64,000 nt of DNA from Squalus acanthias. Taxonomy: Eukaryota. Below the pieces are notes generated by a model. It was not told the DNA's origin, searched no databases, and was given only the letters and a program-made list of their open reading frames with translations. The stretch is from contig CM059431.1 of assembly GCA_030390025.1 (NCBI GenBank), positions 109,308,001 to 109,372,000 of the forward strand, in the 5' to 3' direction. A program made the position numbers and the translations under genes. This document shows positions 1,100 through 63,944 of the stretch, piece after piece; position 1 is the first letter of the stretch; every line of letters begins with the position of its first letter.

Positions 1100-1557
1100 G
1101 CAGCCTGAACCACGGCTCAGTGGGTAGCACTGTCGCCTCTGAGTCAGAAGGTTGTAGGTTCATAGTCCCACTCCAGAGACTTAAACACAAAAATCTAGGT
1201 TAACATTCCAGTGCAGTGCTGAGGGAGTGCTGCACTGTCGGATGGTGCCATCTTTCGATTGAGATGTTAAGCTGAGGCCCCATCTCAGGTGGATGTAAAT
1301 AGATCCTATGGCACTATTTTGAAGAAGAGTTCTCCCCAGTGTCCTGGCCAATATTTATCCCTTAATCAACGTCACTAAAACAGATGATCTGGTCATTATC
1401 ACATTGCTGTTTGTGGGAGCTTGCTGTGCGCAGATTGGCTGCCGCGTTTCCTACATTACAACAGTGACTGCACTTCAAAAAGTACTTTGTTGGCTGTAAA
1501 GTGCTTTGGGACGTCCGGTGGTCGTGAAAGGCGCTATAGAAATGCAAATCTTTCTTC
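1100..1557 (+). mobile_element. SacSINE1-like Deu-domain SINE, near full length
   Basis: tRNA-like head (GGCTCAGTGGGTAGCAC..GGTTCA), central GATGAGACGTTAAACCGAGGCCCC-type body, and 3' tail AAAGGCGCTATAGAAATGCAA resembling the L2 tail. About ten more copies occur in the window. Confidence 0.85.
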
Positions 1558-1857
1558 TTACTTTTTTGGGTGTTAGGGAATTTTTGTGCACTCCAAAATG
1601 CCAACTAAAGGGTGTCGATGTGGAGGAATGGAACACTTTCTTGCTTTTGTCACCCAATGTTGGCATCAATGGCATGATCGGTTAAAGCATGGACAGATAG
1701 AGTAAAACTCTCTCAATCCGCCCCAACTAAATTTACCGCAATTAGAAAATAATATTCAGTAAGTTACTGGAGGGACAAGAAGCAACACATCCAATGATTA
1801 CGAGAATTCAGTGCCATACTGGAGCTTCTGTGAAGTACATCTTTCCAGTAAAGAGGC

Positions 1858-2180: not shown

Positions 2181-2435
2181 GGCCGAGATTTTGCTCACCT
2201 CGGCGGGTCCAGTGTGGCCGGTGTCGGTGGCGGGTTGCGGCCACGCTGCTGGCTCCATCCTGCTGTACAACGTGAGCTTACCTCAGTGGGACTTGTTAAA
2301 CCCGCCCAGCGTGTTTCCTGGCCCAATTAGAGGAAGCGGGTCTGGTGACGTCATTCATGACACCCCTTGAGCCGGTTTCCTTAAAGGGACCATGGCCACC
2401 TTACTTTTGACATTTGTGCTGTCAGTGTTGTACAG

Positions 2436-2515
2436 AAATGAGAAGTCGCACAACACCAGGTTATAGTCCAACAGTTTTATTTGAAATCACAAGCTTTCGG
2501 AGCTGCTGCTCCTTC
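2436..2515 (-). mobile_element. PLE-derived family A short insertion, truncated inside the hammerhead core
   Basis: Near-identical to the arms at 2653, 30019 and 63050. Flanked by GTACAG (2430-2435 / 2516-2521). The related empty site CAGTGTTTGACAGCATTGAGG is seen near 37470. Confidence 0.8.
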
Positions 2516-2615
2516 GTACAGCATTGAGGTGCTGCAAACACTGACAATCACTGCACAGAGGTGCAGGGCTGCACCCAGGTTCTCCCATGACTCCCTCCAT
2601 GTGCTTATGGAGGGA

Positions 2616-2857
2616 TGCGGAGATGCCGGTGTTGGACTGGGGTGGACAAAATTGAGAGGTCGCACAACACCAGGTTATAGTCCAACAGTTTTATTTGAAA
2701 TCACAAGCTTTCGGAGCTATCGATTGCTCCTTCCTCAGGTGAAGTAAATTAGAGTATCTAATTTACTTCACCTGAGGAAGGAGCAATCGATAGCTCCGAA
2801 AGCTTGTGATTTCAAATAAAACTGTTGGACTATAACCTGGTGTTGTGCGACCTCTCA
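2616..2857. mobile_element. PLE-derived family A fold-back insertion
   Basis: Perfect 101-bp inverted arms (2653-2753 / 2757-2857) plus a ~37-nt tail. TSD CTTATGGAGGGA at 2604-2615 / 2858-2869. Confidence 0.85.
2768..2809 (+). ncRNA. Minimal type I hammerhead ribozyme motif, family A (mirror copy on minus strand 2701-2742)
   Basis: TCAC-CTGAGGA-A-GGAGC-aatcgata-GCTCC-GAAA-GC-TT-GTGA: stem I TCAC/GTGA, stem II GGAGC/GCTCC, CUGANGA and GAAA cores, palindromic stem III AAGCTT. Confidence 0.75.
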
Positions 2858-4589
2858 CTTATGGAGGGAGTCAGAGCACGCAGGGAAGTCCTCTTCCCTT
2901 CTGATGGGTGGAAGAGACCTCCTCAGGAGACCAATGCAGCCTGGTTGCACATTGCAGAGGAGGGCACAAGAAGGGATGTCATCAGGAGGACCTGGGTGCA
3001 GTGGCACAAACCTTTCAATGATCTCATTAGATCACGAAACGTTATTAAAAAGCCACACTCAACCTCATCCTGCTGTGCCTCTCATCACATCCCCATCACT
3101 CTGCCTTCCCTACCCTACTCCTGCACATCCTTACTCACACCAAATTACCTTGCATCTCCACCCATCCCTCTCTCTATCTCTACATTATCACTTCCCCATC
3201 TCACTAGCCACCACTCACACTCACCCTCATCCTAGTCCAATCATACCAACTAACAACACACAAGGGTAGGCACTTGGGTGTTTTATCTAATATTCATGTA
3301 AAGTTTCTGTTAATGTGCTGTCAAACATTGAAATCTTTATTTTCAACACTTTCCGTTCTTGGACAGATTTGTGTGCATCTTTGGAAGTGGCTTAGTGAGT
3401 TCCAGTGAATGGTGAGACATAACGGTACCCCCCGCAATGGTGATGAGTGTGAAAGGAATGGCTTGGGCATTGTAAGGATGCTTTATGGTGTTGGTGTGGG
3501 GTGGTGCCAACCTGGCACATCATGTGGTAGCCAGGGTGTAAAGTGTCAAGTAAACTAAATCTGGCCATGGTGAGGCCATTCCTGGCGTCCCGGGCAGCAA
3601 TGTGGTCGGGTGCTGATGCCCTGTGTCCTGTGCAGCATCAGGTGATTGTGAAGAAGGTTGGTGGTGTTGTTGGTGCTGCTGGTGTGCCTGGTGCTGCTGG
3701 TGTTGGGGCTGATCGTCGTCAGATTCTGAAGACCAAGGTGGGAGAGTATAAATGGTACCCAGGCTGATGTAATAGGTGTCAGGTGAAGTTGAGATGACAG
3801 AAGCGATCTGTCAGTGGTGAGAGAGGTTGTTCCAATGAGGTGACACTGGATAGAGAGTTTGCTCCAAATACTTGTAACCTGCATAAAGCTCAATCTGTCT
3901 TCCAAATGTGGTAAGCAACAGCTTTTGCACTTGGAAAGTGAATAGCTGTGAGGTGGGAGCTTTTATAGTACATTTCAAGCTGTCAAGTCATCAGCTGATT
4001 CAATCGCCATTCAACTCCCGCCTCAGGTAAACAGACATGGTCCATGAACAGTGTGGACCCCGTGGGCGAGCAGTTAAAGTTAAAAGGCAAGGTTAAAACC
4101 ATTATTAAGAGTCTGTCAACAAGCCAATAATTGCTTTAATTGGATCGCCCGCCTCTGCGGGTCAGGTCCGATCCGAGATCACAGACCCGCCACCGATCTC
4201 ACCCACTAACCCCCCCCGAAAATTCTGGCCATCTTCTCTACGTTTCTAGGTACTATAAAGTAAACATCGATCTTTATTCAGATCCTTCACAAATGGGGAC
4301 TTTCAGTTAGTATTTTGAAGGACATCTAGGTATTTAGATATGGGGAAAAACATCGTAGTACCTTCACATAGCGGATAAAACGGGTCGTGCTCATTGTACA
4401 GGGTCCATAGCAGGGACAGGCTTTTTGTATTCCATATTTTGTGTTCTTATTTGGGTCATTTTTGTATTGAATTTTTTTTTTTTTTAAAGCATAGCCAGGA
4501 AAGAATATTTCTTTTAGAAATAATGCCAGGTATCTGTGGGAACCTCGTCATTAACATCCAAACCACCTGACAAGAAGAAATTTGTCTCT

Positions 4590-6509: not shown

Positions 6510-7435
6510 ATTCCTGAAGGTGTCCTTGCAAGGATATAGTTCCACAGGCACTGGACACCCTACATATCCACTTCATGTGTGAGCCTCAATAGTGAGTGAG
6601 TGTAAGCAGGCTTGTTGGCAGCTTCTCCACCATCTACAAGGCACAAGTAAGGAATGTGATGGAATACTCTCCACTTGCCTGGATGAGTGCAGCTCCAACA
6701 ACACTCAAGAAGCTCGACACCATCCAGGACAAAGCAGCCCGCTTGATTGGCACCCCATCCACCACCTTAAACATTCACTCCCTCCACCACCGGCGCACCG
6801 TGGCTGCAGTGTGTAGCATCTACAAGATCCACTGCAGCAACTCGCCAAGGCTTCTTCAGCAGCACCTCCCAAACCCGCGACCTCTTCCACCTAGAAGACA
6901 AGGGCAGCAGGCGCATGGGAACACCATCACCTCCAAGTTCCCCTCCAAGTCACACACCATCCTGACTTAGAAATATATCGGCTGTTCCTTCATCGCCGCT
7001 GAGTCAAAATCCTGGAACTCCCTCCCTAACAGCACTGTGGGGGTACCTTCACCACCACGGACAGCAGCGGTTCAAGAAGGTGGCTCACCTCCACCTTCTC
7101 AAGGGCAATTAGGGATGGGCAATAAATGCTGGCCTTGCCAGCGACGTCCACATCCCATAAACAAATTTTTAAAAAATCACAGACAAGTCCAATCCTATCA
7201 GCACGCAGTGTGCACTCAAATGCACTTATACCAGGAGTTCCTAAGCAGTGATCAGGAGCAGGAACATTGGCCAATTTTGCTTCCCTAACCCAGGGCCACT
7301 GAAGCCAACTTTATCGTCCCTACTTCCACCCCAACTAGTATCAGCTAGCTCAACACTGACTGAGCACTGAAGCAGGGACTTCTCTGCTGTGCTTGGCTCA
7401 GCTTACTCACGGTTTAAACTCGTTGAGCCACCGAG
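6510..7435 (-). mobile_element. Old tRNA-headed SINE family copy, split by a LINE insertion at 6626-7165
   Basis: Both flanks match the reverse complement of the family seen at 25580 and 26030 (GTGCTGAGTTAGCTGATCTCAG..GCTCACACATGAAG). Confidence 0.55.
6626..7165 (+). mobile_element. Non-LTR retrotransposon 3' fragment (CR1-group, possibly Daphne/L2-related)
   Basis: TIYKAQVRNVMEYSPLAWMSAAPTTLKKLDTIQDKAARLIG is a post-RT LINE motif. A second copy lies at 61162-61480. Confidence 0.8.
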
Positions 7436-8764: not shown

Positions 8765-9109
8765 CAACAAAGAAAAGGCAAAAGTTTCTTGTTGGGGCAG
8801 ATTCCCCAATTGAACGCTCCCGACAAGGAGTGGTACTTACAGGGAGCACTGGTCGGGAAACCATGGCTCCTCAGCCTCCGATCAAAGGGACAAATAAGGG
8901 GCTGTGGGGCCCACAATTTCCCAACTAGTGTTCACTGCAAGTGTCGCTTCTTGCCAGGAGCACCCGATCAGCTCTGTTATCTACCGCCCGATCCGTAACC
9001 CTTGTTCACCAAGAGATTGTTACTTTGCTGGTCATAACAATCGCATCTCCTTCATGTTGGACTGAAGACTGAACTGTAGCATGGAGCAAGTCATCTTATT
9101 CTAACTCCC

Positions 9110-9247
9110 GATACGATAGCAAAATACTGCGGATGCTGGAAATCCGAAATAACAACAGAAAACACTGGAAAAACTCAGCAGGCCAGGCAGCATCCGTGGA
9201 GAGAGAAAGAGAGTTAACGTTTCAGGTCGATGACCTTTCATCAGAAC
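9110..9247 (-). mobile_element. PLE-derived family B short insertion
   Basis: Matches the 3' end of the GIY-YIG-bearing fragment at 18438-20100. 13-bp TSD TATTCTAACTCCC at 9097-9109 / 9248-9260. Confidence 0.85.
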
Positions 9248-9248
9248 T
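9212..9248 (-). ncRNA. Minimal type I hammerhead ribozyme motif, family B
   Basis: Minus strand reads AGTT-CTGATGA-A-AGGTC-atc-GACCT-GAAA-CG-TT-AACT. Confidence 0.75.
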
Positions 9249-10012
9249 ATTCTAACTCCCATTGGTTTGCAGGGCTTTCGACTGTACTGAAGTCAAGAGA
9301 AAGAAATGGGGTTCCCTGCCTGCCTCATAAATAGGCTCCAGCACTCCCAAACTGAAGCAATCAAAGAGGGCTGATTCCTCCAATGGAAACCATCGTCCAG
9401 AAAGTTCTATGAAAGCTTTGGGGCAACATTGCCTTTTTTTTTAGTGTAACTGTAATTAATAAACCACCAGGAAAATAGTTGCTTAACTGGTTTATACATC
9501 AAAAACTTTATTAATTCAAATGTGGAGGGCAGAATTTTCAGTGAAAAGGCTTGAATGATAATACTAAAAATGCTATTTTAACCATGAGCCCCCACAAACG
9601 CTCGTAACTTCGGTTATGAAGTCAGACCCCAAATATGCGTCACAAATGGGCAAAAGAACAGCCATGCCTGGCAGTATGTCACTGATTATGTGAAGGACCT
9701 GGCTGAGATACAGAACAAGGTGAAGCATGAACATTACTGCAAAAGTGGCAGCACGGAACATATAAATGGACAAGACAGAAAGCACTAGTTGCTAAAGATA
9801 TATACAAAATATACTTGAATGGCCTCTCTGTGCATAAATACTGCAACATGGTGGCTTGAGATCGCGTTACATTTTTAAATATATTGCAATTGGTACATGG
9901 ATCAGGGTTTGGCGGGGGCAGGGGGGCCATTGAAAAATCCTATGTAAACATTCCTATGGAGATTCCCCATGTTAAAATGTCCACTGGTAGTGATTACACT
10001 TTTCCTGTAACG

Positions 10013-13763: not shown

Positions 13764-14568
13764 GGGCGCGATCTTGCCAGCCCTGGGGAGGCGGGTTTGG
13801 AGGTGGGACTGCTGGGAAAATGGCAGAATCTGGGGGCGGGTGCCCATCCCGCCCCCAACCCGCCTCCGTGCCATCTTCCCGGGAGGCGGGTAGACGACCC
13901 GCGCCGGGTCCTTTCTCCTGGAGACGGGAAGGGGATTAGTCTCAATTAACTGCCTGTTAACAGGCTGATAAAATGATTATCCCCATTTTACCCACACAAG
14001 TGCGGGCTTCCCGAAGGCTGCGAACCCCGCCAGGGTCACCGAGGCGAGTAGTGGGTCTGCGGGGGTCTGCGGGGTGCAAAAGTGCGCTGTGAAGGTAAGT
14101 GATGGGTGCAAGTGTGGCGAGCTAAGTATGTGAGGTGAGTGGAAAATGATAGAAAATGTTTACTTACCTTTGTTTCTTCCTGCAGGCTTCAAACGTTGGG
14201 GATGCGGAGAGTCTCGCATCTCACCGGCAGAGATGACAGATGGCTGCTGCATTCTCCAATGCAACAACCATCTAATTTCTGCTCACAAAACAGGTTTGAT
14301 GAGTCTTGACTACAAGGACTCATCATACAACAGAGAATGTCAGTGTTTGACAGCTTCACAGAGCTGTCAAACGATGACAATTCATCTGTCAAAAACGTTC
14401 TCTGTAACCGGCTTCCCCTTAATTGGCCTGCTAAGCCCGCTGGGCGGGCTTAACAAGGTCAATCAAGGGAAAATAGCGTGGGTTGGCCAGAAGTTGATGG
14501 AGGTGGGACTAAAGCGCGACAAGTGGGAGCCCCGCCTCCAAAAGCTCCCCATTGGCAAAGTCCAGCCC
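13764..14568 (+). mobile_element. Harbinger-type MITE (~0.8 kb family)
   Basis: TIRs GGGCGCGATCTTGCC / GGCAAAGTCCAGCCC. Homologous along its length to 19032-19867 and 59932-60733. Confidence 0.85.
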
Positions 14569-16670: not shown

Positions 16671-17894
16671 GCCTAGAAATTTGGGTGCGCCTATATTTGG
16701 GCATTTTATCCGCACAGTGTTAACGGGGGAGGTCCGAGGAGCCCCGGATTTTGGGCCTCGGACCTAATCATAACGGAGATGGCGCTGCGGTCGGAGCCTG
16801 CACAGGTTAGCGCTCCAAGTTCCAGGTAAGTGATTGGGTTGGATCGCAGGGGGTCTGGAGAAGGGAGGGGTGGGCCTCGGAGTCCGTTATCGGGGGTTCA
16901 GTGGGGGCTCAGGCAGGAAGATCACAGGCCTCGGGAGTGCTGTTGTTGTGGGGGCGGGGGGCGGTGGTCAGGGGGTGATCGGGTGGGGGGGGCCTGGTGG
17001 TCAGAGTCGGGAGTGCAGTCGGAGATCTCGGGACCGGGAGCAGCGGTGATTATGGTAAGTACTTATGTGGTATTTAGCTTTGGTTTTCTCGGAGGCAATC
17101 GGCACTGGCACTGGCTGCCTCAGGGCAAATCAAAATTGCAGCATGGACCAGAAGCAGGAGTGAGGCCCCTTGCAAACAGACAAACGCCTACTTCAGCCGT
17201 GGCTCAGTGGGTAGCACTCTCGCCTCTGAGTCAGAAGGTTGTGGGTTCAAGTCCCACTCCAGAGACTTGAGCACATAAAGCTAGGCTGACACTCCAGTGC
17301 AGTGCTGAGGGAGTGCTACACTGTCGGAGGTGCCGTCTTTCGCATGAGACGTTAAACCGAGGCCCCGTCTACCCTCTCAGGTGGACGTAAAAGATCCCAT
17401 GGCACTATTTCAAAGAAGAGCAGCAGTGTGGCCCTGCAGGAGAGTATTGGTCCTGTTAACTTTTTCCACTCCCCTTCCCTTGCCCCAACTTGAAGGGTCT
17501 TGCTACCATTTCCAGCTCCCTGGTGTCCTGGCCAATATTTATCCCTCAACCAACATAACAAAAACAGATTATCTGGTCATTATCACATTGCTGTTTGTGG
17601 GAGCTTGCTGTGCGCAAATTAGCTGCTGTGTTTCCCACATTACAACAGTGACTACACTTCAAAAGTACTTCATTGGCTGTAAAGCACTTTGAGACGTCCG
17701 GTGGTCGTGAAAGGCGCCATATAAATGCAAGTCTTTCTTTTCTTTCTTTCTTTCTTTCAGACGTGGGTAAAGGACACCTCTAGTTTGTCCTTTCCCAAGA
17801 TGGCACCCGGCACGATTCACAGCAGAAGTGTGCGCATGTGCATCGGACGCCATTTTGATCCCCAAACGGCAACCATAGCGCCCAAACAACGGCC
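16671..17894. mobile_element. GC-rich MITE hosting a SINE insertion
   Basis: Begins GCCTAGAAATTTGGG; GC/CpG-rich body on both sides of the SINE at 17194-17760. Right end is approximate. Confidence 0.5.
17194..17760 (+). mobile_element. SacSINE1-like SINE with a 92-nt foreign insert
   Basis: Full SINE with (TTTC)n tail. 17424-17515 is absent from the other copies. Confidence 0.85.
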
Positions 17895-18420: not shown

Positions 18421-19031
18421 CAAAAAACAGAAAACAAAATTCTCCATCCCACTCCCACACTGACCTCTCCGTCCTACACTGTTCCAATGAAGCTCAACGC
18501 AAGCTCAAGAAACAACGCTTTGTCTTTCTATGAGGCACTTTACAGCCTTCCGACCTTTTAACATTGAGTTTAACAACTTTAATCACTGCTCCCATTTTCT
18601 ATAATGGAGGATGGCTGCACCAGAGCCACTGGGAGTGGAGGAGGTGTGGGCTGGTATTCGGGGTAGGGATCCCCTACTAATACATGGCCGGCGGGGCGGT
18701 CCGCACCGCAGGTGTCTACCACCTTTCTTTAGACACGTTCTGGGGCCGCGGGAGCATTCTCTTTGCCAGATTTTGTGTACTTTCCCTCCTCACTTGCTTT
18801 TCTGCTGCAACCATTTACTCCTCTTCTGGACTTGTCTTTACTTGCCTCATTATCATCTCATTTTGCCTTGCACTTTTGTCATTTAATCATTCCTGCCCTC
18901 CACCCTATCATAGACCTTCCCCTTTGTTTTTTCCCCTTCCCACCCCCTTTTCCTTGGCTCTGCCCTTGATTAAAAGCTATGCATCTCGAACATCTTCCAG
19001 TTCTGATGAAAGGTCATTGAACTGAAACGTT

Positions 19032-19867
19032 GGGGGTGATCTTGCCAGCCCTGGGGAGGTGGGTATGGAGGGGGGACTACCGGGAAAATGGCAGAATCTG
19101 GGGGCGGGTACCCATCCCGCCCCCAACCTGCCTCCGTGCAATCTTCCCAGGAGGCGGGTAGCCGACCCGCGCCGGGTCCCGTCTCCTGGAGGTGGGAAGG
19201 GAATTAGTGCCACTTAACTGCCTGTTAACAGGTAGTTAACAGGCAGATAAGAGGATTATCCCCATTTTTCCACCAGAGGTGCGGGCTTCCCGACGTCGGG
19301 AAACCCCGCCAGGGTCACCGAGGCGAGCAGTGGGTCTGCAGGGGTCGGAGGGGTGCAAAGTGCGCTGTGGAGGTGAGTGATGGGTGCAAGTGTGGAGAGG
19401 TAAGTATGTGAGGTGAGTGGGAAGTGATAGAAAATGTTTACTTACCTTTGTTTCTTCCTGCAGGCTTCAACAGTTGGGGATGCGGAGACTCTCGCATCTC
19501 ACCGGCAGAGATGACAGATGGCTGCTGCATTCTCCGATGCAACAGCCATCTAATTTCTGCTCACAAAAGAGGTTTGATGAGTCTTGAATACAAGAAATCA
19601 TCAAATAACAGAGAGTGTCAGTGTTTGACAGCTTCACAGAGCTGTCAAACGATAACAATTCATCTGTCAAAAAGTTTTGACAGATGAAACGTCATACGCT
19701 GATGTTCTCTGTAACCGGCTTCCCCTTAATTGGCCTGCTAAGCCCACTGGGCGGGATTAACAAAGTCAATCAAGGGAAAATAGCATGGGTTGGCCACAAG
19801 TCAATGGACGCGGGACTGAAACCTGACAAGCAGCAGTCCCGCCTCCAACATTGACAAAATCGCTCCC
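19032..19867 (+). mobile_element. Harbinger-type MITE (~0.8 kb family)
   Basis: TIRs GGGGGTGATCTTG / CAAAATCGCTCCC with 3-bp TSD GTT (19029-19031 / 19868-19870). Confidence 0.9.
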
Positions 19868-19912
19868 GTTAACTCTGTTTCTCGATCCACAGATGCTGCC
19901 CGACCTGCTGAG

Positions 19913-20060
19913 CAATGTTCCCTCTAATATTTTTTTGGGCCACACGGCTCCTTTAAGGGGCTGCGCGGCCCATTCAAAATTCCACGCATGCGCGTTTCTT
20001 TTCCATTTTAAAGCCTGTGAGCGGGACTTCCAGAGCGCTGCACAGCCACGCGGCCACACA
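19913..20060 (+). mobile_element. hAT-like MITE, right end missing
   Basis: Starts CAATGTTCCCTCTAA, the TIR of the elements at 33630 and 59727. Confidence 0.7.
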
Positions 20061-21049
20061 TATTTCAGATCTCCAGCGTCCGCAGTATTTTGGTTTTATT
20101 GCTGCTAAAATAGATTCATTTAAAAAAAAAATTCTAATGAGAACTAGGCCCATTACAAAGAATCCACATCTCAATGAGTGCATTATCTTTCGCAGTGTAA
20201 ACTTTCCCACCAGCCAACGTGACAGGCTGCTGGCTTTTCTTGGAACAGATTCTGCCAAAGAATTCCTCAATTTCGGTGGCCATCTCTCTTTAAATAAGAA
20301 AACAATGAGACGCTAATTTTTTTGTTCCTGATCAAGTGAACAGTCCCCGTGAACATGTTCGAATACTTCAACCAGAGTTGAAATAGTTTGATGTACGTAG
20401 TGCAATGTGTGAATAGGAGAATTAGAAAACTTGTCCCTAAATGTCAAACACACAAACTATAAAATGGGCATCAACTGTAAACCAGTGAAAAATGTTAATA
20501 CTGTCGTATTCTGTAAAGCAGAAAAATCACAGTTGGAATCAGTCTAGTTATTTGTAAGTGTAAACATCCAAATGCAGTCTGTTTCAGAGGCGTTAGTACA
20601 ACATTTCCCCTGTAAAACTTGATCTGTTTGAAAAGATTGAGAGAACTGGAAAAGATGAGGCGACGGGTCATTAAATATGAAAAATGCTGAGCGAGTGACC
20701 AAGCACATATCTGAGCTATGGGAGGTATTCAATCGGTCCCAGTGCCAAATTATGGTGCCAATAAAAGTGAATGGTGCTTAAAGTCTGACTTCTGATAGAC
20801 TTTTCCAGTTGAGCCTATTTCACCCAGTTCAAAGGACATGACCTCTTTAAGGTAGGAAGCGAGACATTTGATTGGCTGACAGGTAGCAGATCACAAAACT
20901 AGGAGGTAGATTCCTCGATGTCCTGTTTGTAATATATTTTGAATAGTTTTGTTGGAATATTGTGCACTGTTGAATAAGAGGATGTTATTTCTGCTGAATT
21001 AATCAAAAGCTTTCGATAGCAAGCATAAGCAAATCTTTCAATCACAACG

Positions 21050-24205: not shown

Positions 24206-25464
24206 ATAAGAACATAAGAACATAAGAAATAGGAGCAGGAGTCGGCCATTCGGCCCCTCGTGCCTGCTCCGCCATTCAATAAGATCATGGTCTTGGCCTC
24301 AACTCCACTTCCCTGCCCGCTCCCCATAACCCTAGACTCCCTTATCGTTCAAAAATCTGTCTATCTCCGCCTTAAATATATTCAATGACCCAGCCTCTAC
24401 AGCTCTCTGGGGTAGAGAATTCCAAAGATTCACGACCCTCTGAGAGAAGAAATTCCTCCCCATCTCCGTTTTAAATGGGCGACCCCTTATTCTGAAACTA
24501 TGCCCCCGAGTTCTAGATTCCCCACGAGGGGAAACATCCTCCCTGCATCAACCTTGTCGAGCCCCCTCAGAATCTTAGACGTTTCAATAAGATCACCTCT
24601 CATTCTTCTAAACTCCAATGAGTATAGGCCCAACCTGCTCAACCTTTCTTCATAAGACAACCCCCTCATCTCAGGAATCAACCTAGTGAACTGCCTCCAA
24701 TATAAGTGTATCCCTCCTTAAATAAGGAGACCAAAGCTGTACGCAGTACTCCAGGTGTGGTCTCACCAGCGCCCTGTACAGTTGTAGCAAGACTTCCCTA
24801 CTTTTATACTCCATCCCCCTTCCAATAAAGGTCAACATTCCAGTTGCCTTCCTAATTACTTGCTGTACCTGCATGCTAACTTTTTGTGTTTCATGTACAA
24901 GGATCCCCAGATCCCTCTGTACCGCAGCATTTTGTAGTCTCTCTCCATTTAAATAATAATTTGCTTTTTTATTTTTCCTACCAAAGTGGATAACCTCACA
25001 TTTTCCCACATTATACTCCATCTGCCAAATTTTTGCCCACTCACTTAATCTATCTATATCCCTTTTTCAGATTTGTGTGTCCTCTTCACAACTTGCTTTC
25101 CCACCTATCTTTGTATCATCAGCAAACTTGGCTACATTACACTCGGTCCCTTCATCGAAGTCATTAATATAGATTGTAAACAGCTGAGGCCCCAGCACTG
25201 ATCCCTGTGGCACCCCACTAGTTACAGTTTGCCAACCTGAAAATGACCCATTTATCCCGACTCTCTGTTTCCTGTTAGTTAGCCAATCCTCTATCCATGC
25301 TAATATATTACCCCCAACTCCATGAGCTCTTATCTTGTTCAGTAACCTTTTATGTGGCACCTTATCGAATGCCTTCTGGAAATCCAAATACACTACATCT
25401 ACTGGTTCCCCTTTATCCACCCTGCTCGTTACATCCTCAAAGAACTCCAGCAAATTTGTCAAAC
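24206..25464 (-). mobile_element. CR1 LINE, 5'-truncated, with frameshifted reverse transcriptase
   Basis: ORF pieces contain YLDFQKAFDKVPH, SGVPQGSVLGP, KFADDTK and RPHLEYC; (TTCTTATG)n tail. Confidence 0.95.
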
Positions 25465-25579
25465 ATGTCACACAATAAAGTAACACCAGAGAGAACTTTC
25501 AGCTAATTGTCTTTGGTCATAGGAAGAAAAAAATCAAATCTATAAAAAATTCTTCCCAGTCCCCAATTAAAGCTATAAC

Positions 25580-29102: not shown

Positions 29103-29748
<646 letters not shown>

Positions 29749-30018
29749 TTTTAAATCTCAAAATGAGAGGACGACAGACATGAAACCACTGTTTAAGGGG
29801 ATATGTTTATTCCATTTTGTTTATTTTCTTTTCCTGGCACAAGGTATCATGATGGATGTCAACAGCCAATGCACTCCACGTCATAGATGTGTGCTGATGC
29901 ACATGATGCAAGATTCATTATTTTTAAATCACGCGATAATCAACAGCCAATTATCAGAGAGCATACGTTTGCCACAATTGTATATAAATACTAAAAAGTT
30001 CATGCCCATTTCAAAAAG

Positions 30019-30197
30019 TGAGAAGTCGCACAACACCAGGTTATAGTCCAACAGTTTTATTTGAAATCACAAGCTTTCGGAGCGCTGCTCCCTCGTCAGG
30101 TGAAGTGATTTCAAATAAAACTGTTGGACTATAACCTGGTGTTGTGCGACTTCTCACATTTGTCCACCCCAGTCCAACACCGGCATCTCCACATCAT
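30019..30197. mobile_element. PLE-derived family A inverted insertion
   Basis: Minus arm 30019-30104 and plus arm 30105-30197 including the tail. TSD ATTTCAAAAAG at 30008-30018 / 30198-30208. Confidence 0.85.
30067..30103 (-). ncRNA. Minimal hammerhead motif, family A
   Basis: Minus strand reads TCAC-CTGACGA-G-GGAGC-agc-GCTCC-GAAA-GC-TT-GTGA. Confidence 0.72.
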
Positions 30198-30335
30198 ATT
30201 TCAAAAAGGTCACTGCTTAAATGCAGACAGAATGGAAGAGGAGTTGACAGAGCCTGTGCAGTTAACTGACCCAGCCATGGATTGAGCTAATAAAGCTACT
30301 TGTTGAATCGCTGCCCATAAATATGTTTTTCAAAC

Positions 30336-37109: not shown

Positions 37110-38766
37110 GACCTGGATTTTGCGATAAAAGTAACAGTGAGACTATCAGCGCTCACCGGCATTAAAGTGTAAATTGGACAGCAACTTCCAGCGACCGCAC
37201 ACGCGCCGTTAAATGCAGACATCAGGAAGTTGGGGCTGGATTTTACCTTTCGGTGTGGCCTAGGGGCGGGACAACTTCCTTCCGGGTTCTGATCCCGCCC
37301 CCAACGAGGTCTGACGCTATTTTGCGTCAATTGGCCTTGTTAAGCCCGCCCTGTGGGCTTGCCGGCCAATTAGGAGAAAGCTGGTGTCAGATGACGTCAG
37401 TTGATGACGCGTCATCTGCCGGTTTTCTTAAAGGGGCCACGATCAATTTTTTTTTGACAGGTGATTTTTCAGTGTTTGACAGCATTGAGGGGCTGCAATC
37501 ACTGTACAAAGGTGAGCCCTTGCATCCAGGCTCTCCAGTGACTCCCTCCTTAGGCTAGAACAGATGGCAGTTGCAGGTGAGGTTACAGAAGCGATCTGTC
37601 ACTGGTGAGAGGTTCTCACAATGAGCTGGGACTACACAAACACTTCAAAACTTGTTACCTACAGAAAAGTCTAAATACATTAAAATTGATTTTCTCAACA
37701 TTTCCTACTTCTGAAACTCACCAGTGTACAATTGGATCCTTCACACCACTTCTGCAGTGGTCATCAATGAAGAAACATTACAGTAGACCCACAGCACACC
37801 ACACTTACCCTGGCATGGTGTCCGGATGTCAGGAAGCCCGCAGTAGACCTGTCAAAACTACAAAAAACCTCTTAACTGCCTGTTAACAACCTGTTAACAA
37901 GCAGTTAAGTGCCTATAATCCTCTTCCTGCAGCTAGATGTCGGGTCCCTGCGCAAATCGGGGACCTGACACCTGGGAAGATTGATTGGAGGCGGGATGAC
38001 AACGGGTTTCGAACCCGCTGTCAATCTTTGCGATTCTGACGGATGTCCCGCCTCCAAACCCGCCCCCTGAGCAAAATTCCGGCCTTGGTGTCCAAGTTGC
38101 CCTGCTCCTCTAGAAGCTCGGTATCTCGCCGAGAAACTCAACATTGAAACACAATAAACAGCGTGAATTTGCTGTACTTTTTTTAAATTTGTTTATGGGA
38201 TGTACTTATGTGATAGATACCCACTAACCTCGCCAGAAAAAGTTAGGGCTTGTCCATTCCAGGGTAAGTACTCTATTAACAGCGTGATATGTCTTAATTA
38301 CTGCCAAACAACCTATCTGGCACTGAAAATTAACTTTTACAGCTGTGGAGTCTCATTCCTTCAGCTTTTAATTATTGTTGGAAATTTTTTTTTAATTAAA
38401 AAAATGTAAATGTTTTTAACTTATTCTTTCCATCTCTTTTCTCTCTCTTTTAATCCTATCTTTCATTCCCTCCTTTATTTCTCTTTCTCTACAAGATTTG
38501 ACATTGAATTCACTATTCTAATTTGCACTTCCTAGTTCAGACTCTGCGCTGCCCAGTAACAATTCTTCAATCTGATTGATAAAGGAGATGCACCATTGCT
38601 TGCCCTGTTCACACAGGTCCCAGATCCCCTGTCGAGGTCCCCGCGCTGAAATGGCTTTCTAATCACAGCCAGTTCCAGTGCAAAAACCCCACAAAGTCTG
38701 TGGGGAAGTGTAAGTGTAATGAACAGCCGGTGCCATTCATTCCCCGCTAACGGCAAAATCAAGCCC
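37110..38766. mobile_element. Harbinger-type MITE (outer), hosting a second MITE
   Basis: TIRs GACCTGGATTTTGCG / CGGCAAAATCAAGCCC; TSD ATT (37107-37109 / 38767-38769). Confidence 0.8.
37233..38084. mobile_element. Harbinger-type MITE (inner), related to 2181-4230 and the 0.8 kb family
   Basis: TIRs GGGCTGGATTTT / AAAATTCCGGCC; TSD TTG (37230-37232 / 38085-38087). Shares CAGCATTGAGG and ACAGAAGCGATCTGTCA with 2181-4230. Confidence 0.85.
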
Positions 38767-41308: not shown

Positions 41309-42518
41309 TTGGCGATATAAGGCCAGATGCAAATTGTTAAACTCTTTTATTTCGCAAGTAGCAAGTGAATGTAGAATCAAAGAAAATTCCACTTACTTAA
41401 CTTAATCTCACTTCTCTTCTCATGCTAAATAAGAAAGTGCACACTCTGTTCCTTTCCTGGGCTGACTTGGTTTTTGGCACTACCTTTCTCTGTAGTTAAC
41501 TTCTATTTGCAGGACTCGACCTCCTGCATGTTCAGCTTTCAGCACCAGGCTGTGTCCTTGCAGCTCTTTGTTCAAAACCTGATTACTTCCCAAAAACTTA
41601 GGCTTCCCATTCTTTCCTGTCCCATCTGACCCACTGAAGCTGCTGGCAGTGCATCTGGCACCTTGCTGTACATGCATTCACCAGCAGGCCGTGTCAACCA
41701 AAACGACCGCCCCTTCCCCCAGGAATATATTCTCCGCAGACACCTCTTGCCGCACCCGCCAGAATAGAACTGTCCTCCCCACAAATGGCCTCAATATCGG
41801 TGAGCCACCGAGGTGACAAATTGCTTAATATCCCCGGTCTTCCTGGCTAATGGGCCTGGGATGAGATAACAGATCCTGGTCGCATCAGTTCGAAATAGAT
41901 GGTGAGTTATGGCATCCCCCAGTCTGCCTCATCTGGCTTTAATACACATTCTTCAATGCCTGCAGTCTGTGGCATTACTTTTTAAACCTGTGGGAATTCA
42001 CTTTGTTTTAAAACAAAACCCTTAAACATAACTCAAATCCTTTCCCGTGAAGAAAGAAAAAATGATCAAAAAATCCCGAAAAATCACCATTTCCAAAACT
42101 TCCTCTCCCAGAAAGGAAAAATTGCAACATAAAAATTATTCTTTTATACAAAATAGTTAAACAATTGGTGAAAATTACAAATATTCAGTGTCCTCTTCAT
42201 GGCATATTTTATATATAGCAACCTTTGTGATGCAGTGGGTTAGTTCTTGAAATGGTGCATTGTGCGTGGAACAACTAAAGACAGGGGAGAAAAAGGGGGA
42301 AAATACAATATAGAGAAGTGAGTAGTTGAACAGAGAAAAAAGCCATTTTATCCCATGAGCTAGTTCACATGTTGACAGATTTTCTTTGTATCCTGTAGTC
42401 CATTGTCCACCTGTCTTCATAGCACATTTTAAGAAAAATAAATTGTGGCTAGCAAATTTGCTCACTTGTCCCACCTCACAAATGCAGTGAATTCAAAATT
42501 GTAACATACAAATGAGAC

Positions 42519-42822
42519 GTGAAATCCGAGGCCCCGTCTACTCTCTCAGGTGGACGTAAAAGTTCCCGTGGCACTATTTTGAAGAAGAGCAGGGGAGTTC
42601 TCCCCGGTGTCCTGGCCAATATTTAATCAACATCACTAACACAGATTATCTGGTCATTATCACATTGCTGTGTGTGGGAGCTTGCTGTGCGCACATTGGC
42701 TGCCATGTTTCCTACATTACAACAGTGACTCCACTTCAAAAAGTACTTCATTGGCTATAAAGCGCTTTGGGATATCCAGTGGTCATGAAAGGCGCTATAT
42801 AAATGCAGCCTTTCTTTCTTTC
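42519..42822 (+). mobile_element. SacSINE1-like SINE, 5'-truncated
   Basis: CCGAGGCCCCGTC..AAGGCGCTATATAAATGCA. Confidence 0.85.
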
Positions 42823-42846
42823 TCTCTTACATGTTACAAACATAAT

Positions 42847-43577
42847 GGACTGGAAGTGAGGCATCACAAAGCATACGCCGTTACTTCGAATTTTTCCTGC
42901 ATCCTTCAGATTGAAATGTTTTTGCCCTGTAACCTGCTGGAAGTGCGAGCTGATAACGGCGCAACATGGGCAACAGGACATCTGCAACCTTGGTGAACGA
43001 TGGGACCAACGGTCTATCTCCTTATTGAGAAAGAGACAGAGGAATGACGGAGAAGCAGGGCGAATTAGAGTCAAATCAGGTACAGAAAGAAAAATAAAGA
43101 GAGGAAAAGAAAGATTGGATTAAGAGAGAGAAAAGAGACAGAATGGAAAAGTAACAAAAAAAAATTAAGTTTGACATTTGTAAAATCTCCAACAACAATT
43201 CACTACCTGAAGGAATGAGACCCCACAGTTTAAATTGTTCACTTTCTGGGCCAGAGAAGTTGATTTGCAATACATTAACAATCATCATGTTGTTAAAGGG
43301 TATTTACGCTATTAATTACCAGACTTAACTTTCTGTAGCGACTTTAATGGGCAACTAATGCATAAATCCAGCAAGTTCTTAAAAATAACAGGGAGGTTGA
43401 GGGCGAGCTGCCATTTGGGCGAGGCTAATGACAGAGCGGCGTAAGGCAACCAGCAAGTTTTAGAGATTCACAGCTCACAGTATATCTCTTAACCCCCCTG
43501 AACTTGCTGGCCGACTTGCGCATTACTAACGGTGCGTGTCGTTAACACGCCATTTTTATTCCAGCAAGCTCCGATCC
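42847..43577. mobile_element. Harbinger-type MITE, loosely related (inverted) to 37110-38766
   Basis: Degenerate TIRs GGACTGGAAGTG / CAAGCTCCGATCC with AAT on both flanks. Shares CCCCACAGTTTAAATTG-like internal sequence with the reverse complement of ~38300-38400. Confidence 0.6.
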
Positions 43578-49289: not shown

Positions 49290-49668
49290 GCAGCCGTGGC
49301 TCAGTGGGCAGCACTCTTGCCTCTGAATCAGACTGAGGGAGTGCTGCACTGTCAGAGGTGCTGTCTTTCGGATGAGACATTAAACATGCTCTCTCAGCTG
49401 GGCCTAAAAGATCCCATGGCACTATTTGAAGAAGAGCAGGGGAGTTATCCCTGGTGTCCTGGCCAGTATTTACCTCTCAAACAACATCACTAAAAACAGA
49501 CTATCTGGTCGTGATCACATTTGCTGTTTGTGGGAGCTTGCTGTGTGCAAATTGGCTGCCGCGTTTACTACTTTACAACAGTAATGACGCTTCAAAAGTA
49601 CTTCACCGGCTGTAAAGCGCTTTGGGACGTCCTGAAAAGGTGCTATATAAATGCAAGTCTTTCTTTTT
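49290..49668 (+). mobile_element. SacSINE1-like SINE with an internal deletion
   Basis: CAGCCGTGGCTCAGTGGG head through the TATATAAATGCAAGTCTTTC tail. Confidence 0.85.
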
Positions 49669-51380
49669 CGGAATGAGGAAGAGGTGGTCCACCTAGCACT
49701 ATCATCAGACCGAAACGTGCGGGCGGAACTGGGCAACACTGCAGAATACATTCCTCTGTGCAATCTGTCCTCGGAACAATGACGGAAGCAAAAAATTGCA
49801 CTGGGGCACATTCAGAATGTGTGAGGAAAACATATTTATTTATTTCAATTGGCTGAGTGAGCTTCCATTATTTTGCTTACTGTTAAGCACAGCCTTGGCA
49901 GGCTTGGGAATTGTGGAGAGGAGCAGAAAATGGATACAGTCTCTTTGTAAGGTGACCTCCTTTGAAGCAGAAAACTGTACCACCAGGCAGGTTTTTAAGC
50001 TCATCCCACCACTTTTCCAGCTACTAATTCGATATAAATCAACACTTTGGAGTGGATAACATTCCTGCTCCATGTGCAATGCTCCGTACACAATAATTCT
50101 CTGCCCTTTCGAACATTCTCCCCTTCGGGGCAAACAGCGGTAATGAATACCTAGTCGTAAAGAATTACAGAGCGCTTTGTCTCACTTTGCATTGAAACTT
50201 CCAAGGTTTTTGGATCCAGAAACCTGTAAACGAAACACACGGAGCAGATAGAATTTTTAAACGGCGCAATGCAATTAGGCAGAATTCAATCTGAGCTCAC
50301 TCCATCCATCTGTCAGTGCGAACAAAACCTGAAGCACTCCATTATTACCCAATCCCCCCTCTTGTTAATTTGCTTGCAGAAAGCTTTGAACGTCTAGGAA
50401 CTGCACAAATTAAGCAGCCACAGTGTTCAATGAGCAAGGGTAGATCCTCCCTAAGTATCACCAGATGGTGGAAATCAGTCCTAATCAAGTGGCCAAACCA
50501 TTTCTATCTGATTAGAGAGCTTTTTAATCCCCTCGCACTGTCTGCTTTTTAAGTAAATATATTCTGCCTTCTTTTTTCTCCTCCTCGCACAAGACTCAAA
50601 ATAACTTGTTCTTTCTGTTGTAAATAAGGAAGCGTTAAGTTCATTTTCTATTTTTAAACAGTTTCCTTTTAAACTATTTTGACAAACCAGATGTCCAGCT
50701 TTGCCACAAATAAGCAGGGTCACGTGCGTCGCTTACATCTCAATGCAGCTGATTAAAGTGCTAGTGTGTGTAAGGCTAATTATTAATTTATGGGAATGGA
50801 TGTAGGAGCTATTGCAATAATGCAAGGCTTCACAGTGAGATGTTTCATGACAGTGCGGGGGTTAGGTTACACTGTGGTGCCCACCGTCATAACGCGGACC
50901 GCCGTACTCGAAACAACACTGCACTGCAAGCTTTAAATGTAAAGGACAGTTCCCTGATCTCTTGGCTTGTTGCAGGTCTACGAACTGCTCCCCTGTATTA
51001 TTAAAGATTAAATCTCCTCATAATACATCATTTTCTTCTCCCTCCCCCTCACCAGTGCTCATGCCTGCATTGCATGTCTTTACTTTGAAAAGCAAATTAG
51101 TTTGATTGCTACATGTTAATGTTTATAGAACCATAAATAAAGATGAGAGCTGATTTCAGCAGTACAACTGTCATCTCGACTGGATATAATTAAAATGCCT
51201 TGAACTTTATGACAGTTAAAGCAAAACTGAATATTGAGGAGGTTTGATTTATATTTCTTTTTAGCTCGCGGCCAACATAAAGGCTACTGTCTCTTTAACG
51301 GTCAGCCCAGGCCGCTGCTCTAACAGTCACAGAAAGAAATGTGCGAGATTTTAAAAGACTGAACGGGGTGCAGATATGGT

Positions 51381-58999: not shown

Positions 59000-59236
59000 A
59001 AGCAAAGCACTGCGGATGCTGGAAATCTGAAATAAACACAGAAAATGCTGGAAATGCTCAGCAGGTCGGGCAGCGTCTGTGGAGAGAGAAATAGCGTTAA
59101 TGTTTCAGGTCGATGACCTTTCGTCAGAGTTGAGTTCTGACTGAAGGTCATCGACCTGAAACGTTAACTCCATTTCTCTCTCCTCAGACGCTGCCTGACC
59201 TGCTGAATGTTTCCCAGCATTTTCTGTTTTTATTTT
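59000..59236. mobile_element. PLE-derived family B fold-back insertion (older)
   Basis: Minus arm with tail (59000-59130) and plus arm without tail (59132-59236). Decayed hammerhead in both arms, e.g. GAGTT-CTGACTGA-AGGTC-atc-GACCT-GAAA-CG-TT-AACTC at 59132-59170. Confidence 0.8.
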
Positions 59237-59931: not shown

Positions 59932-60733
59932 GGGCTGGATTTTCTCAGCCCCGAGGAGGCGGGTATGGAGGTGGGACTGCCGGTAAAGTAGCAGAAAGTG
60001 GGGGCGGATGGCAAACCCGCCCTTTTGCCAGGAGGCGGGAAGATGTGCTGCTTCGGGTCCCGTCTCCTCGAGGCGGGAAAGGGATTAAATCCTTTTAACT
60101 GCCTGTTAACAGGTAGTTAACAGGCAGAAAAAAGGATTAGTGCCATTTTACCTCGGAGAACCCCGTTGGGTTGGAGGAGTCGAGTAGGAGGTCTGCGGGG
60201 GTCGGAGGGGCCTGAAAGTAAGATGTAGAGGTGAGTGATGGGTGCAAGTGTGGAGTGGTAAGTATGTAAGGTGAGTGTTAAATGTTAAAAAATGTTCACT
60301 TACCTTGGTTTCTGCCTACAGCCTTCATCTGCTCTGGATCGGGAGTCCCGACATCTTCCTTGTCGATTTCACAGACTGGCTGTTGGATCCTCCGAACCAA
60401 CAGTCATCTGAAATCTACAAAGTTGAAAGGTTTGATGAGTCCTGAACACAAGGGCTCATCAAACTACAGAGAATGTCAGTGTTTGACAGCTTCACAGAGC
60501 TGTCAAACGCTGATATTTCTGCTTTCAAGAAGTCTTGAGAGATGGCACATCAGACGTTGACGTGCTCTGTCAGTGACTTCCCCCTAATTGGCCTGCTGAG
60601 CCCACAGGGCGGGCTTAACAAGGTCAATCAGGGGAAAATCCCGCTGGTTGGCCAGAAGATGATGGAGGCGGGACATAGACCCGACAAGCAGCAGTCCCGC
60701 CTCCAATTTGTCTCCATTCACAAAATCCAGCCC
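59932..60733 (+). mobile_element. Harbinger-type MITE (~0.8 kb family, diverged subfamily)
   Basis: TIRs GGGCTGGATTTT / AAAATCCAGCCC; colinear with the copies at 13764 and 19032. Confidence 0.88.
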
Positions 60734-62807: not shown

Positions 62808-63007
62808 TAGGTGACGACATCACAAGTGGAATAAACGTGGCATGCCACGCCTCTGTCATTGTGGATGCTGTTTAAACCAGAGGTACAAATGGAGGCCTAC
62901 AAATTACCACAAAATATATTACTTTGGCTTGGTACTATTTTGGCTTCTTTTCGATGTTTATTTTTTAGGATAGCATAGAAAGAGGAAGCTGTTATAAGGA
63001 ATTACAG

Positions 63008-63220
63008 TGACCATGATGCGGAGATGCCGGTGTTGGACTAGGGTGGACAAAAGTGAGAAGTCACACAACACCAGGTTATAGTCCAACAGCTTTATTTGAA
63101 ATCACAAGCTTTCGGAGCGCTGCTCCTTCGTCAGGTCACCTGACGAAGGAGCAGCCGCTCCGAAAGCTTGTGATTTCAAATAAAACTGTTGGACTATAAC
63201 CTGGTGTTGTGCGACTTCTC
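63008..63220. mobile_element. PLE-derived family A fold-back insertion
   Basis: Inverted arms meet at TCAGGT-C-ACCTGA (63131-63143). TSD AAGGAATTACAG at 62996-63007 / 63221-63232. Confidence 0.88.
63136..63173 (+). ncRNA. Minimal hammerhead motif, family A
   Basis: TCAC-CTGACGA-A-GGAGC-agcc-GCTCC-GAAA-GC-TT-GTGA. Confidence 0.75.
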
Positions 63221-63944
63221 AAGGAATTACAGGACAGATGTTTTTCAGCACTTTATATTCGGGGACCTGTGATATAAAAGTGAACACCTAATAAAAACAT
63301 TTCTGCTGAAGAAATAGGTTTAAAAAAGTAAATCCATTTTCTAACTGTAACTATGAAATGCATCCCTACTTCCGAAATATTTCCTCACACAATTGGCTTC
63401 TATTTTTGGTAAAAAAATACTTAATTTCTCTTCCCTGCCCCACACATCTCTGTCTCCAGGGCATCATGTGTAGACAAGCAACACACTCCAAAACTTAGAA
63501 ATAAAATTTAAAACAGAATGGCACACACTGGAAAAATCTCAAATGAGAACAGAAAATGATGGAACTAGGCAGCTGGGCAGTGGTAAAGAGACTAAACAGG
63601 ATATTGATGTTTTGGGTGTGTCTCCCTTCAGGGTACATACCCAATATATCAATAGCCGGTCTTTTCTCCTTACAGGTGCTGACTGACCTGCATGTCGTTC
63701 CAGTATTTTTGTTTTTATTCCAAGATTTATACTAATGTTGCTTTGTAACTGGTCACTGGGAGAGGTACAAGAGGAGTGTGAGTTGATTCTCTTTAAAATC
63801 ATCCTTCATCTTGAGAAGAAGCACTTGGTCTCCATGATGATATAGCTGAGATTCGTAACTCTGTGTGTGTGTGTGTGGGGGCGGGGTGGGGTGTTGGTGG
63901 GCGAATATGGGGAGTGGGGAACTCACAGATAGCATCCTATGTCA

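What the first reader, a model, noticed from the sequence alone, without database searches (positions are those of the whole stretch)
2768..2809. Two Penelope-derived families carry covarying minimal hammerhead ribozymes
Seen in the sequence: family A (2768+, 2701-, 30067-, 63136+) reads TCAC-CTGANGA-R-GGAGC-loop-GCTCC-GAAA-GC-TT-GTGA. Family B (9212-, 18999+, 59132+) reads AGTT-CTGANGA-A-AGGTC-loop-GACCT-GAAA-CG-TT-AACT. Stems I and II differ between the families but still pair, position N7 and loop II vary, and the CUGA/GA/GAAA core is kept in all but the older decayed copies. Stem III is a palindrome in both (AAGCTT vs AACGTT). Established: PLEs encode minimal type I hammerheads, and palindromic stem III allows dimeric cleavage as in newt satellite 2. 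Inference: this genome is seeded with many short hammerhead cassettes (about seven insertions in 64 kb). Family B is tied to a GIY-YIG remnant here; family A is assigned to PLE only by shared architecture.
Basis: partly seen in the sequence, partly recalled or inferred. Interest (0 to 1): 0.78.

Follow-up and report, generated by a model that had tools for sequence, protein, structure and literature searches.

The report
Penelope stubs with known minimal hammerheads
These short repeats are real but ordinary: broken-off, likely dead ends of two Penelope-type jumping genes in a shark-like genome, each carrying an already described miniature hammerhead RNA motif that is predicted to cut only as a pair or with the element's protein, and their break points likely mark where the element's RNA starts.

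Summary
The motifs are real. Five copies fit a strict minimal-hammerhead descriptor, against 0 in each of 200 shuffles. They lie in seven insertions (11 arms). Eight of 11 stem pairs differ on both sides, all between family A and family B, none within a family: a two-sequence comparison. Both families fit the published consensus of Penelope-like element (PLE) minimal hammerheads (PMC4209133), except that B has A10.1-U11.1, which has precedent there. B is tied to a GIY-YIG remnant. A has PLE insertion anatomy (11-12-bp target duplications, head-to-head arms, one-sided tail, empty sites), but no ORF link was found. The copies are promoterless stubs, not a free cassette. The inverted ones fold into ~100-bp hairpins that lock the ribozyme. 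Five of 11 arms start at an Inr-like A 30 nt after a TATA-like box, and one starts at the predicted cut site. This suggests run-off copying to RNA 5' ends (inferred). This scan has reported the same in other shark DNA many times (404 findings). Known kind, low interest.

The parts
2768..2809 (+). Family A minimal hammerhead (right arm of insertion A2); 8-nt loop II; predicted cut between 2805 and 2806
2701..2742 (-). Family A minimal hammerhead (left arm of A2); arm identical to the right arm over 93 of 93 nt
2616..2857 (.). Insertion A2: long-tail arm 2616-2745 (-), 19-nt palindromic filler 2746-2764, short-tail arm 2765-2857 (+); both arms start at the Inr-like A
   Evidence: empty site joins 2603 to 2858 in 4 of 4 runs
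2604..2615 (+). 12-bp target-site duplication of A2, left copy (right copy 2858-2869)
2436..2517 (-). Insertion A1: solo short-tail family A arm, 5'-cut inside the core; 6-bp duplication 2430-2435 / 2516-2521
   Evidence: empty-site joints
30019..30197 (.). Insertion A3: short-tail arm 30019-30106 (-) with intact hammerhead 30067-30103; long-tail arm 30105-30197 (+) starting at the predicted cut site with 2-4 nt microhomology; 11-bp duplication 30008-30018 / 30198-30208
63008..63220 (.). Insertion A4: long-tail arm 63008-63136 (-, stem I 5' strand cut) and short-tail arm 63136-63220 (+, intact hammerhead 63136-63173); 12-bp duplication 62996-63007 / 63221-63232
9110..9248 (-). Insertion B1: solo long-tail family B arm with intact hammerhead 9212-9248, starting at the Inr-like A (shared with the duplication); 13-bp duplication 9097-9109 / 9248-9260
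18438..18548 (+). C-terminal half of a PLE GIY-YIG domain (one stop, small deletion), 5' end of insertion B2
18969..19031 (+). B2 pLTR: TATA-like ATTAAAA at -30, Inr-like A at 18999, damaged hammerhead up to the GUU triplet
19032..19867 (.). Nested 836-bp element with imperfect terminal inverted repeats and a 3-bp GTT duplication, splitting the B2 hammerhead at its cleavage triplet
19868..20092 (+). Rest of B2: stem I 3' strand and tail 19868-19914, a second ~145-bp insert, long-tail end 20061-20092
59001..59235 (.). Insertion B3: long-tail arm 59001-59128 (-, core kept, stems I and III damaged) and short-tail arm 59133-59235 (+, core broken); target duplication uncertain

Best explanation
These are 5'-truncated, likely dead ends of two Penelope-like retrotransposon families in a shark-like genome, each carrying the known minimal type I hammerhead motif of the element's pseudo-LTR, which is predicted to cut only as an RNA pair or with the element's protein. 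Shown: the motifs, target duplications, empty sites, head-to-head arms with one long and one short tail, family A's continuation upstream, and family B's GIY-YIG remnant. From the literature: PLE protein nicks and extends both target strands and starts reverse transcription at two internal RNA sites that define the tail (PMC11167929). Inferred: the element's RNA starts at an Inr-like A at or 3 nt before hammerhead stem I. When the enzyme primes in the tail of this first pseudo-LTR, it runs off the RNA's 5' end after only 90-140 nt. Priming on one strand gives a solo stub; priming on both strands, at the near and the far start site, gives two short cDNAs joined head to head. Ten of 11 arms reach past the cut site and so were copied from RNA uncut at that site; one starts at the cut site and may come from cut RNA. 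The stubs lack the TATA box and are passengers; the ribozyme would matter only in full-length source elements. Odds: PLE minimal hammerhead identity about 0.93; stubs inert about 0.9; run-off to RNA 5' ends about 0.55.
For: Strict descriptor 5 hits vs 0 in each of 200 shuffles. Fit to the published consensus CUGANGAH-stem II-GAAA-palindrome-U-H; a PLE-associated lamprey row has the same stem I as family A. GIY-YIG: window 18438-18548 hit P0002 at E 9e-4; 24 of 30 proteins hit this place by tblastn, best E 9.5e-9; P0008 (whale shark) carries GIY-YIG above the Pfam cut-off and a weak RVT_1 match below it. Duplications of 11-13 bp at the edges of 4 of 7 insertions; repeats of 11 nt or more occur in 8 of 500 random window pairs. 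Empty sites for A1 and A2. All 4 inverted pairs have one short and one long tail, differing by about 37-47 nt in A and 28 nt in B3; many contigs share the two tail ends (133, 349 and 28 contigs at 2614 in three runs; 389 at 2441 in one run). Family A continues upstream in a conserved sequence (loose ends at 30107-30108, agreement 0.83-0.91 in two runs, 0.52 in the third) with TATATAT at -30 of TCACTT; family B has ATTAAAA at -30 of 18999. Five of 11 arms start at that A and 3 more within 3-5 nt downstream. Whole inverted inserts A2 and A4: probability 0.00 for stems I and II.
Against: No cleavage or RNA end was observed: all listed runs are contigs. No ORF link for family A. The start site is predicted from motifs only. 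The 5 arms come from 4 insertions, and two of the starts have 1-2 nt of junction ambiguity. The cut-site arm is a single case whose 2-4 nt microhomology could give the same junction by resection. Only 4 inverted pairs were examined; all four being long/short has a 1 in 16 chance under coin flips. The active double-hammerhead fold is 7-13 kcal/mol above the minimum-energy dimer for the five intact copies in nearest-neighbour energies. No preferential core conservation within family A could be shown: 0 of 11 core vs 5 of 76 other sites vary at 1% or more, Fisher p = 1.0. The Pfam scan of the remnant itself found nothing. Frangieh et al. found no RNA reads ending at the cut site in Anolis.
Confidence: 0.75

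Rival explanations
1. Same PLE stubs, but the 5' ends cluster because reverse transcriptase stalls or switches template at the structured hammerhead, or because an antisense template folds back and self-primes (the model of Arkhipova et al. 2013), not because the RNA starts there.
For: The cluster coincides with the 5' edge of the hammerhead. A2 has identical arms and a palindromic filler at the hinge. Self-priming is proposed for hinge palindromes in PMC3846280.
Against: Both families put the modal end 30 nt after a TATA-like box although its distance to stem I differs (3 vs 0 nt). Solo arm B1 ends at the same place with no hinge. Fold-back alone does not explain one long and one short tail in 4 of 4 pairs.
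Confidence: 0.25
2. The short unit is itself a non-autonomous mobile element (mini-PLE, retrozyme-like or MITE-like cassette) that amplifies from short master copies, using the hammerhead to release its RNA.
For: Very high depth of the unit in read sets, seven insertions in 64 kb, and no family A ORF seen.
Against: Every hinge differs. The family continues upstream of the stubs. The TATA-like box is lost. No tandem arrays at these sites. B2 runs into GIY-YIG sequence. Duplication lengths vary from 6 to 13 bp.
Confidence: 0.07
3. Some copies act as host-level ribozymes that cut read-through transcripts.
For: Five copies keep an intact motif; solo B1 can form stem II (probability over 0.9); family sequence is present in runs guessed to be RNA.
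Against: Stem I probability is 0.31 or less in every context tested and 0.00 in the inverted inserts. No tandem partner. Low in vitro activity of this class. Copies decay by core and stem mutations and by nested insertions.
Confidence: 0.04

Closest known systems
Minimal type I hammerheads (min-HHR) in pLTRs of metazoan PLEs (Cervera and De la Pena 2014, PMC4209133)
   Same: CUGANGA/GAAA core, extra nucleotide between 9 and 10.1, 4-bp helix I, no loop 3, palindromic 15.2-16.2, U17 as in many published rows, mostly dispersed single motifs, and opposite-strand pairs; the lamprey row shares family A's stem I.
   Different: Host is shark-like; no shark term in the 2 supplement files searched (one file not searched). 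Family B has A10.1-U11.1, which is off the consensus but present in coelacanth and Drosophila willistoni rows.
EN+ PLE insertions with inverted 5'-truncated pLTR, one-sided 30-40-bp tail and TSD (PMC3846280; PMC8557442)
   Same: Head-to-head arms, one-sided tail, long TSDs, TATA-like box about 20 nt before a TCACT Inr-like motif as in Pen2a_Av.
   Different: Here most insertions are only the two ends, without the ORF body.
Poseidon element of Anolis (PAc; PMC11167929)
   Same: Tail defined by two end points; both-strand priming would explain the two arms; protein-assisted hammerhead; uncut RNA as main template.
   Different: In PAc the ORF starts inside the hammerhead and the tail lies inside the ORF; in family A the long tail ends near an ATG about 90 nt after the cut site (whether it opens the ORF was not shown).
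Animal non-LTR retrozymes (bioRxiv 10.64898/2026.07.22.740005; PMC7229834 listing only)
   Same: Type I hammerhead, proposed PLE pLTR origin, reported in one chondrichthyan.
   Different: Retrozymes are tandem repeats; these copies are dispersed and solo or inverted.

Membership tests
PLE minimal type I hammerhead (min-HHR) | CUGANGA and GAAA core with U-H triplet, open at helix I | tested here: met
   5 of 11 arms pass a strict descriptor; consensus
PLE minimal type I hammerhead (min-HHR) | [quoted passage not shown] | tested here: met
   Column 12 of alignment A3; A in about 99% of family A depth (place 30092)
PLE minimal type I hammerhead (min-HHR) | Palindromic 15.2-16.2 without loop 3 | tested here: met
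   GC in A, CG in B; 6 of 7 aligned copies pair
PLE minimal type I hammerhead (min-HHR) | G10.1-C11.1 pair (consensus above 80%, not universal) | tested here: inconclusive
   Met in family A; A-U in family B, with published A-U rows
PLE minimal type I hammerhead (min-HHR) | Self-cleavage as dimer or with protein | not testable with these tools
   No raw RNA reads; folding energies only
EN+ Penelope-like element, family B | C-terminal GIY-YIG ORF end upstream of the pLTR hammerhead | tested here: met
   18438-18548+, same strand, about 450 nt upstream of 18999; only the C-terminal half of the domain is present
EN+ Penelope-like element, family A | Linked RT/GIY-YIG ORF | tested here: inconclusive
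   No PLE-type protein hit near A copies; searches found no source element; no genome held
EN+ Penelope-like element, both families | Inverted 5'-truncated copy and 30-40-bp tail at one end only | tested here: met
   4 of 4 inverted pairs
EN+ Penelope-like element, both families | Target-site duplication | tested here: met
   11-13 bp in 4 of 7, 6 bp in 1, uncertain in 2; empty sites for A1 and A2
Non-LTR retrozyme | Tandem repeats with a hammerhead in each unit | tested here: not met
   No tandem array at any copy; definition
MITE / fold-back DNA transposon | Fixed ends, fixed-length TSD, constant internal sequence | tested here: not met
   TSDs 6-13 bp, unequal arms, hinges all different
Rfam hammerhead families | Covariance-model match | tested here: not met
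   No hammerhead hit up to E 1; likely because stem III is missing (inference)

The most novel reading that the evidence does not exclude
The stubs are a fossil map of the element's RNA 5' ends. The hammerhead sits at the very start of the transcript, most stubs are run-off copies of capped uncut RNA, and a minority start at the ribozyme cut, which would show cleavage in the germ line. Further, pairing of two RNAs through the palindromic stem III could deliver two templates to a dimeric PLE protein, so that the hammerhead dimer builds the head-to-head insertion and cleavage acts as a switch that removes the cap or the priming tail.
Probability: 0.25. Interest if true: 0.6.

Novelty: new member of a known kind. 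Interest (0 to 1): 0.22.

Why it matters
As a ribozyme finding it adds two shark-type sequences to a class described in 2014. Its use is indirect. The role of PLE hammerheads in vivo is still open (PMC8557442, PMC11167929), and a genome with about one stub per 9 kb (7 in this window) would allow a purely computational count of insertions that start at the predicted RNA start versus the predicted cut site. That count would test in vivo cleavage and the origin of inverted pLTRs. The scan's earlier notes already make this point for sharks.

Tried and rejected
Rfam scan: no hammerhead family; miRNA hits are palindrome artefacts below threshold. No own genome is held, so no genome-wide count. Search for a family A source element: 10 metagenome matches were chance hits without window similarity; none in viral contigs or prokaryote genomes; a protein search with the translated tail found nothing (weak test). 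Pfam on three stop-free pieces of the GIY-YIG remnant: no hit; first word-based protein search: none. P0001, the top hit, is a repetitive protein unrelated to PLEs and was dropped before the tblastn of 30 proteins. The two long tblastn hits at 24950-25447 are to an RT remnant of another type, not near any hammerhead. No RNA holder is on record; runs guessed to be RNA are contigs and cannot show ends or strand. Run X14 laid 0 contigs, which the tool says may be false. Summed depths were not used as copy numbers. No pile-up at the cut site appeared among the loose ends displayed, but most rows were not shown and contigs drop such signals. Literature: searches for Penelope + shark + hammerhead ribozyme, Penelope + twin priming, pLTR + hammerhead + cleavage site and shark genome + Penelope listed no paper that, by title, abstract start or the passages read, describes shark PLE hammerheads or run-off to the RNA start. 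Luense et al. (RNA Biol 14:1499) is not held; I know only its title and review passages, and its data or Repbase/Dfam may include these families. One search on triplet preference was seen as a listing only and not used.

Full report
Observation. The motif at 2768-2809+ is as described and is the right arm of a 107-nt inverted repeat. A loose core pattern gives 18 matches against 6.9 expected. A strict minimal-hammerhead descriptor (core, stem II of 4 bp or more, pairing 15.2/16.2, U-H, 3-bp stem I) gives 5 hits (2768+, 2701-, 30067-, 63136+, 9212-) against 0 in each of 200 dinucleotide shuffles. BLAST and alignment resolve seven insertions with 11 arms. Of the three family B copies only 9212- is: 18999+ has a stem II mismatch and is split at its GUU triplet by an 836-bp element with a 3-bp duplication, and 59133+ has a broken core. 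Rfam has no hammerhead hit here.

Covariation. On seven aligned copies, 8 of 11 pairs change on both sides and 93.5% of 77 cells pair; slid controls reach 16-44%. Every double change separates family A from family B; departures within a family are breaks. It is thus a comparison of two sequences: good evidence that the fold is kept across source lineages, none that these copies are under selection. Contigs of three runs laid on the 30022-30122 copy (a fourth run laid none) show five variable sites at 1% of depth or more: two in the tail, the bulged base, one stem I base without a visible partner change, and U17 to C17 (31% of depth in X1, 7% in X21, 0 in X6), which keeps the N-U-H rule (rule from established knowledge). 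No core site varies, but 0 of 11 against 5 of 76 is not significant (p = 1.0).

What carries the motifs. Family B: a 39-residue read-through of 18438-18554 found P0002 (E 9e-4), whose relatives include whale shark, zebra shark and skate proteins. Twenty-four of these 30 proteins hit 18438-18548, and P0008 has GIY-YIG above the Pfam cut-off plus a weak RT match. The remnant is the C-terminal half of the domain, on the hammerhead's strand, about 450 nt upstream. The shark-like host is inferred from these relatives. Family A: no ORF link was found. Its anatomy is that of PLE insertions. Duplications of 12, 11 and 12 bp flank A2, A3 and A4, 13 bp flank B1, 6 bp flank A1, and B2 and B3 are uncertain; 8 of 500 random window pairs share 11 nt or more. 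Other copies of the host repeat join 2603 to 2858 in 4 of 4 runs and skip A1 as well. All 4 inverted pairs are head to head with one short and one long tail, and hundreds of contigs end at the same two points with unrelated flanks. This matches the inverted 5'-truncated copy and one-sided 30-40-bp tail described for EN+ PLEs. A PLE-associated lamprey motif has the same stem I as family A.

Where the arms start. Loose ends show that family A continues upstream in a conserved sequence (30 and 10 contigs at agreement 0.83 in X6, 11 at 0.91 in X21, 24 at 0.52 in X1). It holds TATATAT at -30 of an Inr-like TCACTT whose A corresponds to 30106. In B2, the only long copy, ATTAAAA lies at -30 of the A at 18999. 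TATA at about -30 is established knowledge, and a TATA box 20 bp before TCACT is reported in a rotifer pLTR. Five of 11 arms start at that A (both A2 arms, A3 left, B1, B3 right), three start 3-5 nt downstream, one inside the core, one at the predicted cut site and one far upstream. The cut-site arm has 2-4 nt of microhomology with its partner, so it is a hint only.

Mechanism. In Anolis, purified PLE protein cuts and extends both target strands, starts reverse transcription at two internal sites that define the tail, needs no ribozyme cleavage for insertion, and is itself needed for cleavage. Applied here (inference): priming in the tail of the first pLTR of a transcript runs off the 5' end after 90-140 nt; priming on both strands gives the long and short arms, joined by microhomology or filler. 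Ten of 11 arms extend past the cut site, so their template was uncut there. The stubs lack the TATA-like box. Transcribed by read-through, A2 folds as one 101-bp hairpin (-193 kcal/mol), and stems I and II have probability 0.00 in A2 and A4; stem I is 0.31 or less in every context tested. B1 folds no better than its shuffles (z 0.10). The double-hammerhead fold lies 7-13 kcal/mol above the minimum-energy dimer for the five intact copies, and the 6-nt palindrome that would trap A14 and U17 is more stable than the 4-nt stem III. This fits the low or protein-dependent activity reported for the class. Cleavage was not observed; no raw RNA reads were available.

Comparison and novelty. Minimal hammerheads in PLE pLTRs, their dispersal as thousands of single motifs, opposite-strand pairs, covarying families within a genome and dimer dependence are all in Cervera and De la Pena 2014. 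Both families fit its consensus; B's A10.1-U11.1 has precedent. They are not retrozymes (no tandems). Searches listed no paper on shark PLE hammerheads or on run-off to the RNA start. Earlier notes of this scan report the same stubs and the same run-off idea in sharks, two of them in this genome; these are unchecked notes, not independent support. I had noted run-off to RNA 5' ends before reading them; the exact -30 test and the whole-insert fold came after.

Papers seen. PMC4209133: parts 1-2 of 4, a supplement search (2 files, one not searched) and part 2 of 3 of file 2. PMC11167929: parts 1-2 of 4. bioRxiv 10.64898/2026.07.22.740005: part 1 of 5 and passages; supplements closed, and its species table may bear on sharks. 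PMC8557442, PMC3846280, PMC2377424, PMC6765202, PMC6466107, PMC6155905: passages. Luense et al.: title only. Hammerhead numbering and the N-U-H rule are partly recalled.

Verdict. Real, correctly named, known kind. Interest 0.22; the residual value is as a genome-scale readout of PLE RNA ends.

Noticed in passing
window 2283-3030: A1 and A2 both sit in a high-copy host repeat whose reading frame has a Myb_DNA-bind_5 match just below the Pfam cut-off (E 6e-4), likely a Harbinger-type Myb gene remnant (inference); two family A hits lie 90 bp apart in it.
   Followed up: partly
window 19032-19867; related copies 13764-14568, 59932-60733, partial 37785-38067: About 800-bp element with imperfect GGG(C/G)-starting terminal inverted repeats and a 3-bp duplication, Harbinger-like by recall; one copy landed exactly in the GUU triplet of the B2 hammerhead.
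   Followed up: partly
window ~19915-20060: Second ~145-bp insert in the B2 tail, starting with a motif that resembles hAT termini (recalled); no clear duplication found.
   Followed up: partly
window 18978-18987 and loose ends: Both families share a 10-nt motif (TATGCATCTC) between the TATA-like box and the predicted start, in different register; could be homology, a promoter element or chance.
   Followed up: no
window 18426-18436: An 11-nt inverted match to the family B short-tail end abuts the GIY-YIG remnant (E 1.6), possibly a tiny inverted arm of B2.
   Followed up: partly
window 30071: A family A subfamily carries C17 instead of U17 (31% of depth in X1, 7% in X21, none in X6), the cleavage-favourable base by recall.
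   Followed up: partly
window 2785-2792: The 8-nt loop II of A2 holds a palindrome (ATCGAT); depth over this variant is high in X1 and near zero in X6, suggesting a young lineage-restricted subfamily.
   Followed up: partly
window 24683-25498 (-) and 6596-6970 (+): LINE-type reverse transcriptase remnants (RVT_1 E 3e-18 for the first; the second by eye).
   Followed up: partly
window 1114-1587, 17201-17770, 29103-29778, 42512-42848, 49298-49673 and others: A frequent dispersed repeat family of SINE-like length, at least six copies.
   Followed up: no
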